Counted from the stretch's first letter, positions 35,073-39,164 are shown. The stretch is DNA of 64,000 bases from Candidatus Saccharimonadales bacterium (GCA_035758825.1 DASTWA010000009.1:417-64416); one strand, 5' to 3'. Numbers and translations are program-made. Notes: generated from the sequence alone by a model not told the origin.

Positions 35073-35134
35073 ACCCCCAGTATATACGTTCACCGGTGTT
35101 AAAGGAAATATGACCAGAGGAGTAAAGTTTGTAG

Positions 35135-35163
35135 TTGACATACGAGGCAACCATTCTTATGCT
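35135..35163 (+). promoter_or_regulatory. sigma70-type promoter of the peptide/ABC operon
   Basis: TTGACA-17 nt-TATGCT, about 37 nt upstream of ATG 35200. It lies downstream of the alternative start at 35110. Confidence 0.45.
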
Positions 35164-35199
35164 GCAGCCGCAACCAACTTTAACAGGAAGGAATTCCGT

Positions 35200-35394
35200 A
35201 TGCAGAGCCTCATAGAAATTGACCAAACAGCAGACTACAGCCTCAAAGAAGCCGGACCAATCGTTATTGCCCTCGCCTTCGTAATTGCGGTTGGAGGTAT
35301 GACGGCAGCAGCGATAATCCTATGCGGTTGGCGAGGCGCCAAACATATGGGCTTCAACTGGACCCAAAAACGAGTTGAGATTGTGTGCCGCTAA
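35200..35394 (+). CDS. 64-aa peptide: acidic N-terminal segment, hydrophobic core, cationic Trp/Cys-containing C-terminus (candidate precursor peptide)
   Basis: An AGGAAGGA RBS lies 7 nt before the ATG. The sequence is MQSLIEIDQTADYSLKEAG-PIVIALAFVIAVGGMTAAAIILCGW-RGAKHMGFNWTQKRVEIVCR. Its stop overlaps the next ATG (TAATG). Confidence 0.55.
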   Translation: MQSLIEIDQTADYSLKEAGPIVIALAFVIAVGGMTAAAIILCGWRGAKHMGFNWTQKRVEIVCR

Positions 35395-36242
35395 TGAATC
35401 CGTTTGCGAGTTACTGCCCACTGTTACTCGATGCTGATATGCTGTACTTGTCTGGCTCCCTGACCATACAAGGGCGGCGTGTATACGACACTACCGTTGG
35501 CGCCCTTCACTGCATTCAACCGGCGGGCACCACTATCCTTGCGGCGCTGGGGAATGGACCAATAGCGTTCGCGGCTCTCAGACATGCCAGCAAGAATGCC
35601 GGTGTCGATGATACACAGCTCTCTGACCTTCTCGGTTTTCTCAACGTTACCGGCGGCCTGATCCGCAGGCGGCCGGTACGGGCACATGCTAACGCCTGCA
35701 AACAAACTGTCCGGAACCTGCTGCTTGGCACACGGTACAAACCGCTGTATGTCCGGCGGCGGGCGACCCCGCTTTCCATTACAAAGCATATAATTGGTGC
35801 GTCTTGGCCAATCATTACTTTAAGCATCCTCACTGCTGGCCTTGCTGCAGCCGGAGGAGTGTTGCCGGCTCATGAGTGTTTATTTATCTGCGGCGCATGG
35901 TTGTCCATATTCATCAGCTCTACCTTTCTGCATGAGCTATCCCACTATCTCCTGCTCCGCCACAACCATATACCGACCGACGTAATAAAACATGGCTTCC
36001 GATGCGGCCTGCTCCATCGGCAGCAATTACCGGACTTCGAAATAAAGACCGCCCTGCTCGGGCCAGCCGCCGGAAGTGTATGGTGCATCCTGTGTGCGGC
36101 AGTCAGTTTTGGCCTACACCAGCCGTCGGCCATTGCCATATGCGGGATCGTGCTGCTTATTCAGGCCCTTAGCCTTGTACCCTGGTACGGCGATGGTATG
36201 AGCCTGCAGGCTGCACGCCGGCAAAAGAGGTACGACCAATGA
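35394..36242 (+). CDS. fusion of PqqD/RRE-like N-terminal domain with M50-like intramembrane zinc metalloprotease
   Basis: The start is taken at ATG 35394, coupled to the upstream stop. The N-terminal ~90 aa follow a PqqD-like pattern (…ALHCIQPAGTTILAALGNGPIAFAALRHASKNAGVDDTQLSDLLGFLNVTGGLI). The TM region carries FLHELSHYLL and LVPWYGDG, which match the HExxH and LxPxxxDG motifs of site-2 proteases. Confidence 0.6.
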   Translation: MNPFASYCPLLLDADMLYLSGSLTIQGRRVYDTTVGALHCIQPAGTTILAALGNGPIAFAALRHASKNAGVDDTQLSDLLGFLNVTGGLIRRRPVRAHANACKQTVRNLLLGTRYKPLYVRRRATPLSITKHIIGASWPIITLSILTAGLAAAGGVLPAHECLFICGAWLSIFISSTFLHELSHYLLLRHNHIPTDVIKHGFRCGLLHRQQLPDFEIKTALLGPAAGSVWCILCAAVSFGLHQPSAIAICGIVLLIQALSLVPWYGDGMSLQAARRQKRYDQ

Positions 36243-36973
36243 ACGGCTTAGTCCAAATACATAAACTGCGGGTACACCGCGGGGTCAACTTTTCTTTAAG
36301 CATTGACTGTCTTTCGCTGACTGCAGGAAAAACCATCTGTTTGGCCGGGCCTAACGGGAGCGGCAAGTCGACACTTATCCAATCCATCGCTGGCTTGATC
36401 ACACCCGACCAAGGTACGATTACGGTTGCGGGACAGGCAGTCAGCAGCAACCTCCGCGCCACCAGGGCAGCGATAGGCCTCATACCGGACGACGAAGATT
36501 GGCTCATCAAAGAATTGTGCGCAAAGGAATACTTTGCACTATTGGCCCGAGTTTACCGCGATGCGGGCGTCCGGACAGATATGGAGGCGCAGGCCCTCTC
36601 CCTATCGAGGGAGCTTATGTTCAACTCCTTTTTGCAGCCGCTCGACTCATTGAGCCACGGCAACAAAAAGAAGGTCCAAATCATTGCTGGCCTCATGCAC
36701 CATCCAGCATTGCTGGTGCTGGACGAAGTACGCAACGGCCTTGATCCACTGGCTATCATCGCAGTTGAATCACTCCTCAAGAGAGAAAAAAGCCGTGGGG
36801 CATGCATTCTGGCCGCCACCCATGACCTGTGGTGGGCGCAACGGACAGGCGATCGCATTATTCTCTTATCCCAAGGCAAAGTACAAGCCGACAAATCAAC
36901 AAGTTCAATCAAACGCACCCATAAAAGCGTCGAGGCAATGTTTATGGAGCTGAATGGACTGCAGACCGGATGA
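36239..36973 (+). CDS. ABC transporter ATP-binding protein
   Basis: 244 aa with Walker A GPNGSGKST, signature LSHGNKKKV, Walker B LLVLDE and an H-loop ATHD. It has ATGA overlaps at both ends. Confidence 0.9.
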   Translation: MNGLVQIHKLRVHRGVNFSLSIDCLSLTAGKTICLAGPNGSGKSTLIQSIAGLITPDQGTITVAGQAVSSNLRATRAAIGLIPDDEDWLIKELCAKEYFALLARVYRDAGVRTDMEAQALSLSRELMFNSFLQPLDSLSHGNKKKVQIIAGLMHHPALLVLDEVRNGLDPLAIIAVESLLKREKSRGACILAATHDLWWAQRTGDRIILLSQGKVQADKSTSSIKRTHKSVEAMFMELNGLQTG

Positions 36974-38247
36974 ATATCTACGGCGCCGTACTTGCATCCA
37001 CATTCGGTCACGGCAGAAGGCCATTGCGTTCAGCTGTGACCAAGCTTACGGTCATGGGCGTAGCCACGGCCGCCCTCGGCCTTGCACTCGCTGCCGGCAT
37101 TCCGCCGCTCGCCGCAGAAGCCTCAACATCCACTCATTGGTTCATCCGCTCGATCTTTGTCATGCAGGTGGTCACAGTCGCGTCCAACATGAGTGCAGCA
37201 GGGATTATTGGCAGCAAAGACCAGCTTGACCGGCTGCTGTTAACGCTCCCTCTATCCTCAAGACAGCAGTCCGTATTGCTATTACTCCCCACCCTTGTCA
37301 TTACCATGTATGGTCTCTTGCTTGTGCTGCCGTGTCTGTACGCGGTAGGCACAAGGATAGGGGCGCCGATACCCGTTCTCTTCTTAGGCGTATCCGTGGG
37401 TAGCCTGTCGGGTATCGGCCTTTTGCATGGGCAGCTCAGAAGCCCTTGGAAAATCCTAAGCATCCCTATAGTTATGTTTGCAGAGTACGGACTCTTGGTC
37501 TCGCTAACGAAGGATTCGTCATCGAATCCAGCCGCACTGCTTTCTCTTTGCCTGGTCGTCGCCCTTTTATGCTTGGCGGCACTGGGTACAGCCAGCCGTA
37601 TCCGGGCCGAACTGACTGACGCGGCAAGATCAAAACAGCTACGCTTCGTTCAGCATACAGGGTGCCTCTGGGCGATCAAAAAAATCTGGCGGTTTCGAAC
37701 CATGAGGGTCGGCTTTGGGGCAGCGCTGGCCTTGTCGGCGATCATAGCTTTTCTTGCCAAAAAATACCATCTGGACGCTGATCCTTCCCTGGCGACCCTA
37801 GGCCAGTTATTGGCCGCCTCCTACACCTCGGATGCCCGCACGGCAGCCAGAAAGCAAACGCCTTTTGAGGTGGCGGGCCTTAAAGGTAGCTTTGCCCTTG
37901 TAACAAGACTACTCCTTCCGGCTCTGCTAGGGGCGCTCCTGTCCACCGCGCCGCTCACAGTCTTACTGTCCAGCACATCGCCGGCGCACGCGCCAATAAT
38001 TCTGTTACAGATTACTTCGGGAGCATGTCTCGGATTTATGTGCGGATTCTTGCTTGCTCCCGAACGAAGGGATGTCAGTGCCCAAATTGCCGCAGCGCTC
38101 ATGTGCGTCGCTTTGGCCATCCTGCCACAACGACTGACGATACTTAGCGGGCAGCACCCGGCCATCTTTTTCGGCGCTCTGGCGATAATCGGGTCTGTCG
38201 TCGCGATTATCGCCGAAAGAAAGCGTAATACATTTATATGGAGGTAA
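36970..38247 (+). CDS. polytopic membrane protein, probable ABC permease partner
   Basis: 425 aa with roughly 10-12 hydrophobic helices. It is translationally coupled to the ATPase gene. Confidence 0.65.
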   Translation: MNIYGAVLASTFGHGRRPLRSAVTKLTVMGVATAALGLALAAGIPPLAAEASTSTHWFIRSIFVMQVVTVASNMSAAGIIGSKDQLDRLLLTLPLSSRQQSVLLLLPTLVITMYGLLLVLPCLYAVGTRIGAPIPVLFLGVSVGSLSGIGLLHGQLRSPWKILSIPIVMFAEYGLLVSLTKDSSSNPAALLSLCLVVALLCLAALGTASRIRAELTDAARSKQLRFVQHTGCLWAIKKIWRFRTMRVGFGAALALSAIIAFLAKKYHLDADPSLATLGQLLAASYTSDARTAARKQTPFEVAGLKGSFALVTRLLLPALLGALLSTAPLTVLLSSTSPAHAPIILLQITSGACLGFMCGFLLAPERRDVSAQIAAALMCVALAILPQRLTILSGQHPAIFFGALAIIGSVVAIIAERKRNTFIWR

Positions 38248-38248
38248 T

Positions 38249-38584
38249 ATGTTTCACTTCAACCTACAAAAAATAGTCCGGGCAGCTGGACTGGGGCTCT
38301 TTGTCGGTCTGGTCTTCTGGTTTGGTGCCTTATGTTTTGCGGCTAATTCCGTGAACAGGTCGTCCAAAGACGTGACCTACCGGTTGCGCGCCGGGCCACT
38401 ACTCCTTAACACCATCCAACGGAAAACGACTGACAAGGGCACAGAAGCCAGCATCAGCGTTCACTGGGGGCTGGCAAGCTTCGTTGGATGTACTGCAGCA
38501 GTAACTTCGGCAATAGTCACTGTAAGCCAAAAATTTGGCATTACTCGGTATAAATCGGCGGGTCGCCCTGTTCGGGAGTCGTAA
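38249..38584 (+). CDS. small 2-TM membrane protein (candidate immunity/accessory protein)
   Basis: 111 aa, starting 1 nt after the permease stop. TM segments are AAGLGLFVGLVFWFGALCFAA and WGLASFVGCTAAVTSAIVTV. Confidence 0.5.
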   Translation: MFHFNLQKIVRAAGLGLFVGLVFWFGALCFAANSVNRSSKDVTYRLRAGPLLLNTIQRKTTDKGTEASISVHWGLASFVGCTAAVTSAIVTVSQKFGITRYKSAGRPVRES

Positions 38585-39164
38585 AGTGGACGCCGCTGTC
38601 ATCGACATAAAAAGATCCGCACGTATCTTGCTCCTGGCCCGTGTCGGCATAGACACCGATCGGCTTGCCTTCTACGGCGCTCGGGATACTTACTACCGTA
38701 CCGCTTAAGCCATTGCCGCCAGTAACGGGAAGGTCGTTACCGACAGATCCCTGCTGGTTGTATTCACGAACATGGTAGGTTACGTTATTGGCGCCGGTAG
38801 TGACTACACGCAAATTTAGGGTAGTGTTGCCTTGGGCATCTTCTTTGGCGTTTTCCAACGCGTCAAGCCTACACTCCAACGCAAGCCGTTCAGAAGATGC
38901 CGGTGCGGCTGGAGCGGAGCTAGAAGCATCGCCGCTTGCAGTCTCGAAAGCACGGGATTGATCAGGGGCTTCACCACCACCGCCAAAAAGGGATCGCACG
39001 CCCATTACACCAGCCAGGCCAAGGGCAACGCCCCCAATAAGGGTACGGGTGCGCCATTTTCTAAACTGTGTCGATAGCTTGCGTTCGCCTTTGGTGTCGT
39101 CCGCATAAGCTTGCAAGGCCTCAATAGCCGATGTTTCTGATCGTGCCGCTGCATGGTTTGCCAT
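38541..39164 (-). CDS. N-terminally membrane-anchored hypothetical protein
   Basis: 207 aa with a TM segment (LIGGVALGLAGVMGV), a Ser/Ala-rich linker and a beta-rich domain. It overlaps the convergent 38249-38584 ORF by 44 nt. Confidence 0.5.
   Translation of the reverse strand: MANHAAARSETSAIEALQAYADDTKGERKLSTQFRKWRTRTLIGGVALGLAGVMGVRSLFGGGGEAPDQSRAFETASGDASSSAPAAPASSERLALECRLDALENAKEDAQGNTTLNLRVVTTGANNVTYHVREYNQQGSVGNDLPVTGGNGLSGTVVSIPSAVEGKPIGVYADTGQEQDTCGSFYVDDSGVHFTTPEQGDPPIYTE

What the first reader, a model, noticed from the sequence alone, without database searches (positions are those of the whole stretch)
35200..35394. Candidate precursor peptide: acidic leader ending EAG-P, 24-residue hydrophobic core, cationic Trp-rich C-terminus with two Cys
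The sequence is MQSLIEIDQTADYSLKEAG / PIVIALAFVIAVGGMTAAAIILCGW / RGAKHMGFNWTQKRVEIVCR. The polar acidic N-terminal 19 residues end in Ala-Gly, a small-residue pair reminiscent of double-glycine-type leader ends. The rest is hydrophobic and then basic and aromatic, as in membrane-active class II bacteriocins. Two Cys residues 22 positions apart could form a disulfide. An AGGAAGGA RBS lies at ideal spacing. The longer 94-aa version starting at 35110 would begin upstream of the predicted promoter.
Basis: inference. Interest (0 to 1): 0.6.

Follow-up and report, generated by a model that had tools for sequence, protein, structure and literature searches.

The report
Conserved peptide beside leader-binding membrane protease
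This 64-residue gene is real and strongly conserved in a group of tiny soil Saccharibacteria, always at the head of an operon whose next gene is a membrane protease with a built-in peptide-docking domain, so it is most likely that protease's substrate and the precursor of an exported, membrane-active peptide that I found described in no paper or database searched.

Summary
The ORF at 35200-35394 is a real gene. 75 distinct homologues of 64-65 aa exist, all named ones from Candidatus Saccharimonadales. Synonymous sites are saturated and amino-acid change is low. A promoter and RBS are conserved in position.

In all 29 loci with enough sequence, the peptide gene lies directly upstream of a 280-aa protein. 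I show by profile, AlphaFold model and fold search that this protein is a leader-binding (RRE) domain fused to a minimal 4-TM site-2 (M50) protease. An ABC ATPase, a 12-TM ABC efflux-type permease and a 2-TM protein follow.

The only characterised system with this architecture is the daptide pathway (MpaP/DapP). This is not a daptide:
- The C-terminal residue is Arg or Lys, not Thr.
- The operon holds no tailoring enzymes.
- The daptide protease model NF041824 does not match.

So the precursor or substrate reading is supported. The double-glycine and class II bacteriocin analogy is not. Cleavage, its site, export and activity are inferred.

One feature is odd for a bacteriocin. The "core" is the most conserved part of the operon, about as conserved as polA, while the "leader" varies.

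The scan noted the same peptide family before in another genome. New variant of a known kind; moderate interest.

The parts
35135..35163 (+). Sigma-70-like promoter TTGACA-17-TATGCT of the operon
   Evidence: Consensus scan scores 10/12. On its own this is no better than chance in the region (4 found against 3.4 expected). However, the same hexamers at the same distance from the ATG recur in most of 22 distinct homologous loci, together with a conserved spacer GGCAACC.
35185..35192 (+). Shine-Dalgarno AGGAAGGA, 7 nt before the ATG
   Evidence: Read directly from the sequence. AAGGA or AGGAG is present at the same place in the homologous loci.
35200..35394 (+). 64-aa peptide gene (stop included)
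   Evidence: Single copy in the genome.
35200..35256 (+). Residues 1-19: polar, acidic, variable N-terminal part and putative leader. Conserved anchors are S3, L4, Y13, K16, E17 and G19.
   Evidence: Mean entropy 1.70 bits. Y13 is present in 74/75 sequences, E17 in 73/75 and G19-P20 in 73/75. Net charge is -3 to 0 in all homologues.
35257..35331 (+). Residues 20-44: hydrophobic segment rich in small residues. A24, G32, G33, A37, C42 and G43 are invariant.
   Evidence: Mean entropy 0.55 bits. pN 0.157 against pS 0.75. KD 2.55.
35332..35391 (+). Residues 45-64: basic tail, net +3 to +4, ending V-E-I-V-C-R/K with invariant C63
   Evidence: Synonymous variation occurs in every codon of the tail, so selection acts on the protein. 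In most loci the TG of the Cys63 codon also supplies the NTG start of the next gene, but Cys63 is kept where that gene starts elsewhere.
35385..36242 (+). RRE (PqqD-like winged helix, about residues 12-97) fused to a minimal 4-TM site-2 (M50-like) zinc protease. The start is GTG 35385 or ATG 35394, overlapping the peptide's end.
   Evidence: - H183, E184 and H187 are invariant, as are H211 and D270-G271 in LLPWYGDG.
- The family profile hits the M. jannaschii S2P 3b4r at E 5.8e-5.
- The AF2 model has pLDDT 95.5.
- Foldseek gives NisB and MibB leader-binding regions, SpoIVFB 8vjl and MjS2P 3b4r, each at probability 0.99, and also TbiB1.
- Pfam M50 and PqqD matches are only sub-threshold.
36239..36973 (+). 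ABC transporter ATPase, DrrA/ABC-2 type, with no peptidase domain
   Evidence: PF00005 at E 1.2e-23. TIGR01188 drrA at 1.5e-35 and the lantibiotic-protection ATPase TIGR03740 at 7e-24, all below their equivalog cut-offs.
36970..38247 (+). 425-aa polytopic permease (about 11-12 TM), the partner of the ATPase
   Evidence: No Pfam or PDB sequence hit. The AF2 model has pLDDT 78.8. The best fold match is the mycobacterial ABC efflux pump 8k1p_A, probability 1.00, TM 0.48.
38249..38584 (+). 111-aa 2-TM protein with an invariant W24 and G-P-x-x-L loop motif. Role unknown (immunity or accessory subunit is a guess).
   Evidence: Present as the fifth gene in every complete locus. Alignment A4. No family hit.

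Best explanation
The ORF encodes the dedicated substrate (precursor) of the protease encoded next to it.

1. The 64-aa peptide is made from its own conserved promoter and strong RBS.
2. The cytoplasmic RRE domain of the 285-aa protein docks the peptide. This is most likely through the N-terminal 19 residues, whose conserved anchors are S3-L4, Y13 and K16-E17.
3. The fused 4-TM site-2 protease has its HExxH/D270 zinc site at the cytoplasmic face of the membrane. It cuts at or near the E17-A-G-P20 junction.
4. The product of about 44-45 residues is unmodified. It consists of a small-residue (glycine-zipper-like) hydrophobic helix and a cationic Trp-containing tail, possibly closed by a Cys42-Cys63 disulfide.
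5. The ABC-2-type transporter (ATPase plus 12-TM permease) extrudes this product from the membrane. The 2-TM fifth protein acts as an accessory or self-protection factor.
6. Outside the cell the peptide acts on membranes, either of competitors or of the actinobacterial host of these epibionts.

**Shown:** the gene is real and under purifying selection; its synteny is strict; the neighbours have the stated folds and catalytic motifs; the transporter is of efflux type.

**Inferred:** binding, cleavage, the cleavage site, export, the disulfide and the activity.
For: - **Synteny.** The peptide lies directly upstream of the RRE-S2P gene in all 8 relatives' genomes that have that gene, in all 10 GTDB species hits, in 4 metagenome places and in 7 of 7 loci fished with the protease motif alone.
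- **The neighbour.** It has an RRE plus S2P architecture with invariant catalytic residues.
- **Precedent.** The same architecture is the leader peptidase of daptides. Their precursors have a leader ending ...MEAP, a hydrophobic helical core and co-occurring ABC transporters (Ren et al. 2023). M50 proteases also mature epipeptides and pearlins (PMC10885120).
- **Rates of change.** The peptide's N-terminal part and the protease both diverge fast (protease 25-38% identity). The hydrophobic part and tail are conserved. This fits a co-evolving docking pair and a product constrained by its target.
- **Topology of the protease.** The linker after the RRE is strongly basic (+2 to +8), which places the RRE in the cytoplasm.
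- **Transporter.** The permease fold matches an ABC efflux pump.
- **Disulfide.** Both Cys are invariant, and the genome encodes VKOR and a DsbA-like protein.
- **Accessory trait.** The operon is a dispensable cassette. It occurs in 9 of 61 relatives, and polA abuts the P-type ATPase directly in relatives that lack it.
Against: - Charge distribution (N-flank -3 to 0, C-flank mostly +3 to +4, in all homologues) predicts N-out/C-in insertion. That would put the supposed leader on the wrong side for a cytoplasmic RRE.
- The supposed core is about as conserved as polA, which is unusual for an antagonistic peptide.
- There is a single precursor copy.
- All genes are translationally coupled, which suggests near-stoichiometric rather than excess precursor.
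- Gly19-Pro20 is Ala-Val in the two most divergent homologues.
- The protease does not match the daptide protease model NF041824, so the analogy rests on architecture, not on demonstrated orthology.
- There are no expression or mass-spectrometry data.
Confidence: 0.55

Rival explanations
1. The peptide is a resident single-pass membrane protein (N-out, C-in) and not an exported product. It would be a stable small subunit or regulator of the protease/ABC complex, or a substrate of regulated intramembrane proteolysis. In the latter case, cleavage near the invariant C42-G43-W44 at the cytoplasmic face would release the basic 20-residue tail inside the cell, with the RRE docking the conserved V-E-I-V-C-R end as a beta-strand.
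For: - The positive-inside rule is satisfied in every homologue.
- The TM and tail are conserved at housekeeping level, and more than the ABC ATPase.
- The small-residue face (A24, G32, G33, A37 invariant) is typical of tight helix-helix packing.
- Overlapping start and stop codons link all five genes.
- The gene is single copy.
Against: - In every characterised case an RRE fused to a protease serves processing of a separate precursor.
- The partners with which the peptide would pack diverge to 25-35% identity while the peptide barely changes.
- Two invariant Cys are easier to explain outside the cell, and the genome has disulfide-forming enzymes.
- The cassette is dispensable.
Confidence: 0.25
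2. The operon makes a signalling peptide. As with Eep/RasP and the PptAB/EcsAB transporter of Firmicutes, the site-2 protease would cut a short hydrophobic fragment out of the TM segment, and the ABC transporter would export it as a cell-cell or epibiont-host signal.
For: - A site-2 protease and an ABC exporter lie in one operon with a TM peptide.
- A sequence conserved across genera fits a ligand with a conserved receptor.
- The invariant G32-G33 in mid-helix is the kind of helix-breaking site that intramembrane proteases use (established knowledge of S2P substrates).
Against: - No receptor, Rgg/PlcR-type regulator or two-component system is conserved next to the operon.
- The permease has no EcsB (PF05975) match.
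- The basic tail and both Cys are as conserved as the TM part. A short TM-derived pheromone would not explain that.
Confidence: 0.1
3. It is a true RiPP precursor whose tailoring enzymes are encoded elsewhere in the genome, for example modification of the invariant Cys residues. The operon would provide only leader removal and export.
For: - An RRE domain is present.
- Cys42 and Cys63 are invariant.
Against: - None of about 20 complete loci carries a candidate tailoring gene.
- The genome is only 1.2 Mb.
- I did not screen the rest of the genome for RiPP enzymes.
Confidence: 0.07

Closest known systems
Daptide biosynthesis: precursors MpaA1-3 with MpaP/DapP, an RRE fused N-terminally to an intramembrane site-2 protease (Ren et al., Nat Commun 2023, PMC10036551)
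   Same: - The protease has the same domain order: an N-terminal RRE followed by a membrane M50/S2P.
- A short precursor gene lies alongside.
- The leader ends in Glu-Ala-(Gly)-Pro here and Met-Glu-Ala-Pro in daptides.
- A hydrophobic helical segment follows the leader.
- Multi-component ABC transporter genes are in the cluster.
- The product carries positive charge at its C-terminal end.
   Different: - The C-terminal residue is Arg or Lys, not Thr.
- There is no DapB/C/D/M (RRE partner, dehydrogenase, aminotransferase, methyltransferase) in the operon.
- There is one precursor per locus instead of several.
- The core is 45 residues and very conserved, not short and variable.
- The positive charge comes from encoded Arg and Lys, not from a modified terminus.
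- The NF041824 model does not match the protease.
- The host is Saccharimonadales, not Actinomycetota or Bacillota.
Epipeptide operon epeXEPAB of Bacillus subtilis (as summarised in PMC10885120)
   Same: - A small precursor, a membrane M50 protease thought to cleave and help export it, and an ABC transporter lie in one operon.
   Different: - EpeP has no reported RRE.
- A radical-SAM epimerase, EpeE, is essential to that class and is absent here.
- The mature EPE is much shorter.
Eep/RasP site-2 proteases with the PptAB/EcsAB transporter (peptide pheromones of Firmicutes)
   Same: - A site-2 protease and an ABC exporter act together on a hydrophobic TM-like peptide.
   Different: - In those systems the genes are unlinked housekeeping genes acting on signal peptides.
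- There is no RRE.
- The permease here shows no EcsB match.
Double-glycine-leader class II bacteriocins exported by peptidase-containing ABC transporters
   Same: - A short precursor with a polar N-terminal part and a hydrophobic, cationic remainder, with an ABC transporter nearby.
   Different: - No C39 peptidase domain is present anywhere in the operon.
- The junction is Ala-Gly-Pro, or Ala-Ala-Val in distant homologues, not Gly-Gly.

Membership tests
Daptide RiPP class | Invariant C-terminal Thr on the precursor, which is converted to the diamine | tested here: not met
   The last residue is Arg in 66, Lys in 8 and Gln in 1 of 75 sequences.
Daptide RiPP class | Tailoring genes in the cluster: DapB RRE protein, DapC dehydrogenase, DapD aminotransferase and DapM methyltransferase | tested here: not met
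   The operon holds only the peptide, the RRE-S2P, the ABC ATPase, the permease and the 2-TM protein in every complete locus. The rest of the genome was not screened.
Daptide RiPP class | Protease matches the daptide RRE-HExxH model NF041824 (cut-off 300 bits) | tested here: not met
   None of 18 family members hits the model at E <= 1. A six-frame search of the genome finds only a weak 20.6-bit hit to another gene, on contig 8.
Daptide RiPP class | Leader motif ELExMEAP | tested here: inconclusive
   Here the motif is Y-x-x-K-E-[AVF]-G-P. Only the Glu-Ala...Pro end resembles the daptide motif.
Site-2 protease / peptidase M50 (the neighbour that defines the peptide's context) | HExxH in a TM helix, a downstream xxPxxxxDG zinc-ligand motif, and the S2P core fold | tested here: met
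   - H183, E184, H187 and D270-G271 are invariant.
- The profile hits 3b4r at E 5.8e-5.
- Foldseek gives 8vjl and 3b4r at probability 0.99.
- The Pfam PF02163 match is only sub-threshold, best E 0.024 in 10 of 18 members.
RiPP recognition element (PqqD-like winged helix) | Three-stranded sheet followed by three helices, resembling known leader-binding domains | tested here: met
   - The AF2 model (pLDDT 95.5) has strands at 19-43 and helices at 46-89.
- Foldseek hits the NisB and MibB leader-binding regions at probability 0.99, and TbiB1 5v1u.
- HMM support is weak: TIGR04353 at E 0.021-0.12.
- Actual peptide binding was not tested.
Double-glycine leader / PCAT-exported class II bacteriocins | A Gly-Gly (or GA/GS) cleavage motif and a C39 peptidase domain on the ABC transporter | tested here: not met
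   The ATPase is a 244-aa stand-alone ABC_tran protein, and no operon protein has a C39 match. The junction is A-G-P in most homologues and A-A-V or V-A-V in two.
Bacterial lipoprotein signal peptide (lipobox before Cys42) | [LVI][ASTVI][GAS]-Cys with a basic n-region | tested here: not met
   Position -1 is Leu, Ile, Val, Met or Thr, never Gly, Ala or Ser. The n-region is acidic.
Inovirus (Pf3-like) major coat protein | A phage context, with an acidic N-terminus, a TM and a basic C-terminus | tested here: not met
   The charge layout is similar. However, the gene sits at a fixed chromosomal site between polA and a P-type ATPase with no phage genes, and there is no meaningful match among 50,697 phage records.

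The most novel reading that the evidence does not exclude
Soil Saccharibacteria are obligate epibionts with 1-Mb genomes. They may keep a minimal, enzyme-free counterpart of the daptide pathway. In this reading a genetically encoded melittin-like peptide (hydrophobic glycine-zipper helix plus cationic disulfide-looped tail) is released by an RRE-guided intramembrane protease and pumped out to permeabilise or signal to the host cell membrane. Its target would be a conserved host feature, which would explain why the product is frozen in sequence across genera while its processing machinery drifts.
Probability: 0.15. Interest if true: 0.8.

Novelty: new variant of a known kind. Interest (0 to 1): 0.55.

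Why it matters
- **For peptide natural products.** RRE-fused site-2 proteases are characterised only in daptide biosynthesis. Here the same recognise-and-cut module works with no tailoring enzyme at all, on a long and highly conserved peptide. That would make it a clean system for learning how an RRE steers an intramembrane protease, and which end of a TM peptide it reads.
- **For CPR biology.** Very few candidate effectors or secreted peptides of Saccharibacteria are known. This one is a dispensable cassette, yet its sequence is kept about as well as polA. That makes it a testable candidate for interaction with hosts or competitors.
- **If it is not exported.** If it proves to be a resident membrane subunit, the finding is ordinary.

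Tried and rejected
- **Family and structure searches on the peptide.** Pfam and NCBIfam scans of the peptide gave nothing meaningful (SLATT at E 0.076).
- **Word-indexed homologue search with the protease.** It found only 4 proteins because the family diverges too fast. The profile search against 1.84 billion representatives then found 1613 hits, but those carry no genomic context.
- **Metagenome locus search.** A search with the full protease alignment failed for lack of a conserved stretch. It was repeated with a 7-sequence subset.
- **Plasmid and phage collections.** The protease has no match in plasmids. The peptide has only chance-level matches in phages, so the Pf3-like coat-protein idea was dropped.
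- **Other readings rejected.** The lipoprotein signal peptide reading fails because of the wrong -1 residue and an acidic n-region. The circular bacteriocin reading fails because a 45-residue core is too short and there is no DUF95-type gene.
- **RRE domain charge.** It does not discriminate which terminus of the peptide is bound; the domain is near neutral.
- **MpaP/DapP sequence.** I could not obtain one from the paper's supplements for a direct profile comparison.
- **Complex prediction.** Both structure-prediction jobs went to the protease and the permease, so no peptide-protease complex could be modelled.

Full report
**1. The observation**

AGGAAGGA lies at 35185-35192, 7 nt before the ATG.

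The composition is as described:
- Residues 1-19 have net charge -3.
- There is one hydrophobic segment (KD 2.55 over residues 22-40).
- The 20-residue tail has net charge +4.

Two small slips: the hydrophobic block as written has 25 residues, not 24. The two Cys, at positions 42 and 63, are 21 positions apart.

**2. It is a real gene**

A search of 5.8 billion protein clusters found 64 homologues at E 1e-13 to 1e-35. Nearly all are 64-65 aa. The named ones come from Candidatus Saccharimonadales or Patescibacteria MAGs.

With the copies read from loci there are 75 distinct sequences. Across 22 distinct gene sequences the synonymous sites are saturated (mean pS 0.76). Non-synonymous change by region is as follows.

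| Region | pN |
|---|---|
| Residues 2-18 | 0.37 |
| Residues 19-44 | 0.16 |
| Residues 45-64 | 0.31 |

Selection therefore acts on the protein.

The 94-aa alternative is wrong for two reasons:
- Homologues begin at the position of Met1, and the rare longer calls share nothing upstream.
- A TTGACA-17-TAT(G/T)CT promoter at 35135-35163 lies downstream of the 35110 ATG.

Alone, that promoter match is no better than chance in the region. But it recurs at the same distance from the ATG in most of 22 distinct loci, at 10/12 consensus matches in 15 of them and 9/12 in four more. These loci share only 68-87% polA identity with the window, and the promoter comes with a conserved spacer, GGCAACC.

The genome has a single copy of the peptide gene.

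**3. Context**

The window lies in a 1.2-Mb, 97% complete genome. The peptide heads a five-gene + strand operon with overlapping or abutting stops and starts.

| Gene | Coordinates | Size |
|---|---|---|
| Peptide | 35200-35394 | 64 aa |
| RRE-S2P protein | 35385-36242 | 285 aa |
| ABC ATPase | 36239-36973 | 244 aa |
| Membrane protein (permease) | 36970-38247 | 425 aa |
| 2-TM protein | 38249-38584 | 111 aa |

The same five genes in the same order occur in every complete locus examined.

The peptide is immediately upstream of the 285-aa homologue in:
- all 8 genomes of relatives that have that homologue;
- all 10 GTDB species genomes found with the peptide;
- 7 of 7 metagenome loci with upstream sequence that were fished only with the protease motif LLPWYGDG.

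The last set is an unbiased test of co-occurrence.

The cassette always sits between polA and a P-type ATPase. In three relatives without it, two of them in the same genus, polA abuts the ATPase with a gap of 0.5-1.2 kb. It occurs in 9 of 61 relatives searched. It is a vertically kept but dispensable cassette.

**4. The neighbours**

*The 285-aa protein.* It has only sub-threshold Pfam and NCBIfam matches to M50, DUF3267 and PqqD. The evidence that identifies it comes from elsewhere:
- An alignment of 18 homologues shows invariant H183-E184-x-x-H187, H211 and D270-G271 within LLPWYGDG. This is the HExxH plus xxPxxxxDG signature of site-2 proteases.
- The family profile hits the M. jannaschii S2P structure 3b4r at E 5.8e-5.
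- The AlphaFold model is very confident (pLDDT 95.5, pTM 0.88).
- Its best fold matches are the leader-binding regions of NisB and MibB, SpoIVFB (8vjl) and MjS2P (3b4r), each at probability 0.99. The lasso-peptide RRE TbiB1 also matches.

It is therefore an N-terminal RRE fused to a minimal 4-TM S2P. The strongly basic linker after the RRE (+2 to +8) and the position of HExxH at the end of the second TM helix place both the RRE and the zinc site at the cytoplasmic face.

*The ATPase.* It is a stand-alone ABC-2/DrrA-type protein without a peptidase domain.

*The 425-aa protein.* It has no sequence-family hit. Its model (pLDDT 78.8) matches the permease of a mycobacterial ABC efflux pump, 8k1p, at probability 1.00.

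*The fifth protein.* It has two TM segments and a conserved G-P-x-x-L loop, and no known relatives.

**5. What the peptide's conservation says**

| Gene | Identity to the window copy |
|---|---|
| Peptide | 50-81% |
| Protease | 25-38% |
| ABC ATPase | 42-56% |
| Permease | 25-35% |
| Fifth protein | 20-37% |
| polA | 68-87% |
| P-type ATPase | 63-81% |

Operon figures are, and the last two rows are. The peptide is the best conserved gene of its operon and is close to housekeeping level.

Within the peptide the order is the reverse of most RiPP and bacteriocin precursors:
- The N-terminal 18 residues vary (1.70 bits), apart from the anchors S3, L4, Y13, K16 and E17.
- Residues 19-44 are nearly frozen (0.55 bits), with A24, G32, G33, A37, C42 and G43 invariant.
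- The tail is intermediate (1.18 bits), with C63 invariant and V59, E60 and I61 nearly so.

One caveat concerns the tail. In most loci the TG of the Cys63 codon supplies the NTG start of the next gene, and codons 59-60 can form its GGAG. However, every tail codon shows synonymous variation, and Cys63 persists where the next gene starts elsewhere.

**6. Mechanism**

The only characterised RRE-S2P fusion is MpaP/DapP of daptide biosynthesis. There the RRE-dependent intramembrane peptidase removes an N-terminal leader ending ...M-E-A-P from a hydrophobic helical core. ABC transporter genes co-occur, and the products are membrane-active (Ren et al. 2023). M50 proteases also mature epipeptides and pearlins (PMC10885120).

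By analogy, I take the peptide to be the substrate of its neighbour:
1. The N-terminal part is docked by the RRE.
2. Cleavage occurs at or near E17-A-G-P20, at the cytoplasmic face.
3. The ABC pump extrudes a product of about 45 residues.

The fast-evolving N-terminus and fast-evolving protease, set against a frozen product, fit a co-evolving docking pair and a product held by its target. A Cys42-Cys63 disulfide is feasible, because both Cys are invariant and the genome encodes VKOR and a DsbA-like protein. All of these steps are inferred. None is shown.

**7. What speaks against it, and the rivals**

- In every homologue the charges (N-flank -3 to 0, C-flank mostly +3 to +4) predict N-out/C-in insertion. 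That would put the supposed leader away from the cytoplasmic RRE.
- The following points fit a resident membrane subunit, or a substrate of regulated intramembrane proteolysis cut near C42-G43-W44, almost as well (25%):
  - housekeeping-level conservation;
  - a small-residue packing face;
  - single copy;
  - translational coupling.
- A pheromone reading of the Eep/PptAB kind (10%) lacks any conserved receptor gene and does not explain the conserved tail.
- A RiPP with distant tailoring genes (7%) has no positive support.
- The Gly-Pro junction is Ala-Val in the two most divergent homologues, so the exact cleavage site is open.

**8. Comparison with known families**

- **Not a daptide.** There is no C-terminal Thr. 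There are no tailoring genes in the operon. NF041824 does not match.
- **Not a double-glycine/PCAT bacteriocin.** There is no C39 domain and no Gly-Gly junction.
- **Not a lipoprotein signal peptide.** The -1 residue is wrong.
- **Not a phage coat protein.** The chromosomal site is fixed and there are no phage hits.

It works like the leader-removal and export half of a daptide cluster, but on an unmodified, long and conserved peptide. I found no description of it in the papers searched.

First-stage notes of this scan had flagged the same operon on this window, and the same peptide family in another genome. Follow-up reports on other phyla describe other undescribed RRE-M50 cassettes. Those notes gave me the NF041824 accession, which I tested myself.

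**9. Verdict**

Precursor or substrate: yes, probably. Double-glycine or class II bacteriocin: no, or untested.
- Novelty: a new variant of a known kind.
- Interest is moderate. It would be higher if the product proves to be an exported effector of these epibionts.

Noticed in passing
window 35141-35157 and the same place in L002, L007, L011, L013, L019, L025, L031 and others: The 17-nt spacer between the -35 and -10 hexamers carries a conserved GGCAACC(A/T)TT core, even in genomes with saturated synonymous divergence. The 5' UTR (GCAGCCGCAAnCAACTAA) is conserved as well. This may be an operator or another regulatory site for the operon.
   Followed up: partly
L042 (G002), L043 (G005), L045 (G011): Relatives that lack the five-gene operon have polA and the P-type ATPase directly adjacent, with a gap of 0.5-1.2 kb. 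The operon, and the 207-aa minus-strand gene next to it, therefore behave as a presence/absence cassette at a fixed site.
   Followed up: partly
L009 (G046:C3:130067-130390): A fragment resembling residues 88-200 of the RRE-S2P protein, interrupted by three stop codons and with no peptide gene nearby. It is probably a decayed copy of the cassette in another family.
   Followed up: no
window 38541-39164 (- strand): A 207-aa single-TM protein converges on the end of the operon. It is conserved next to the operon in some loci (43% identity in L010, 32% in L015) but replaced in others such as L014. It has no family match.
   Followed up: partly
window 35383-35396: There is dual coding at the peptide/protease junction. 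In most loci the last base of codon 62 and the TG of the Cys63 codon form the GTG start of the protease gene, and codons 59-60 (GTG GAG) can form its Shine-Dalgarno.
   Followed up: yes
G000 contig 8, 38321-38776 (L035, L036): A second, unrelated M50-like gene in the same genome is the only weak match (20.6 bits) to the daptide protease model NF041824. It is presumably the housekeeping RseP-type site-2 protease.
   Followed up: no
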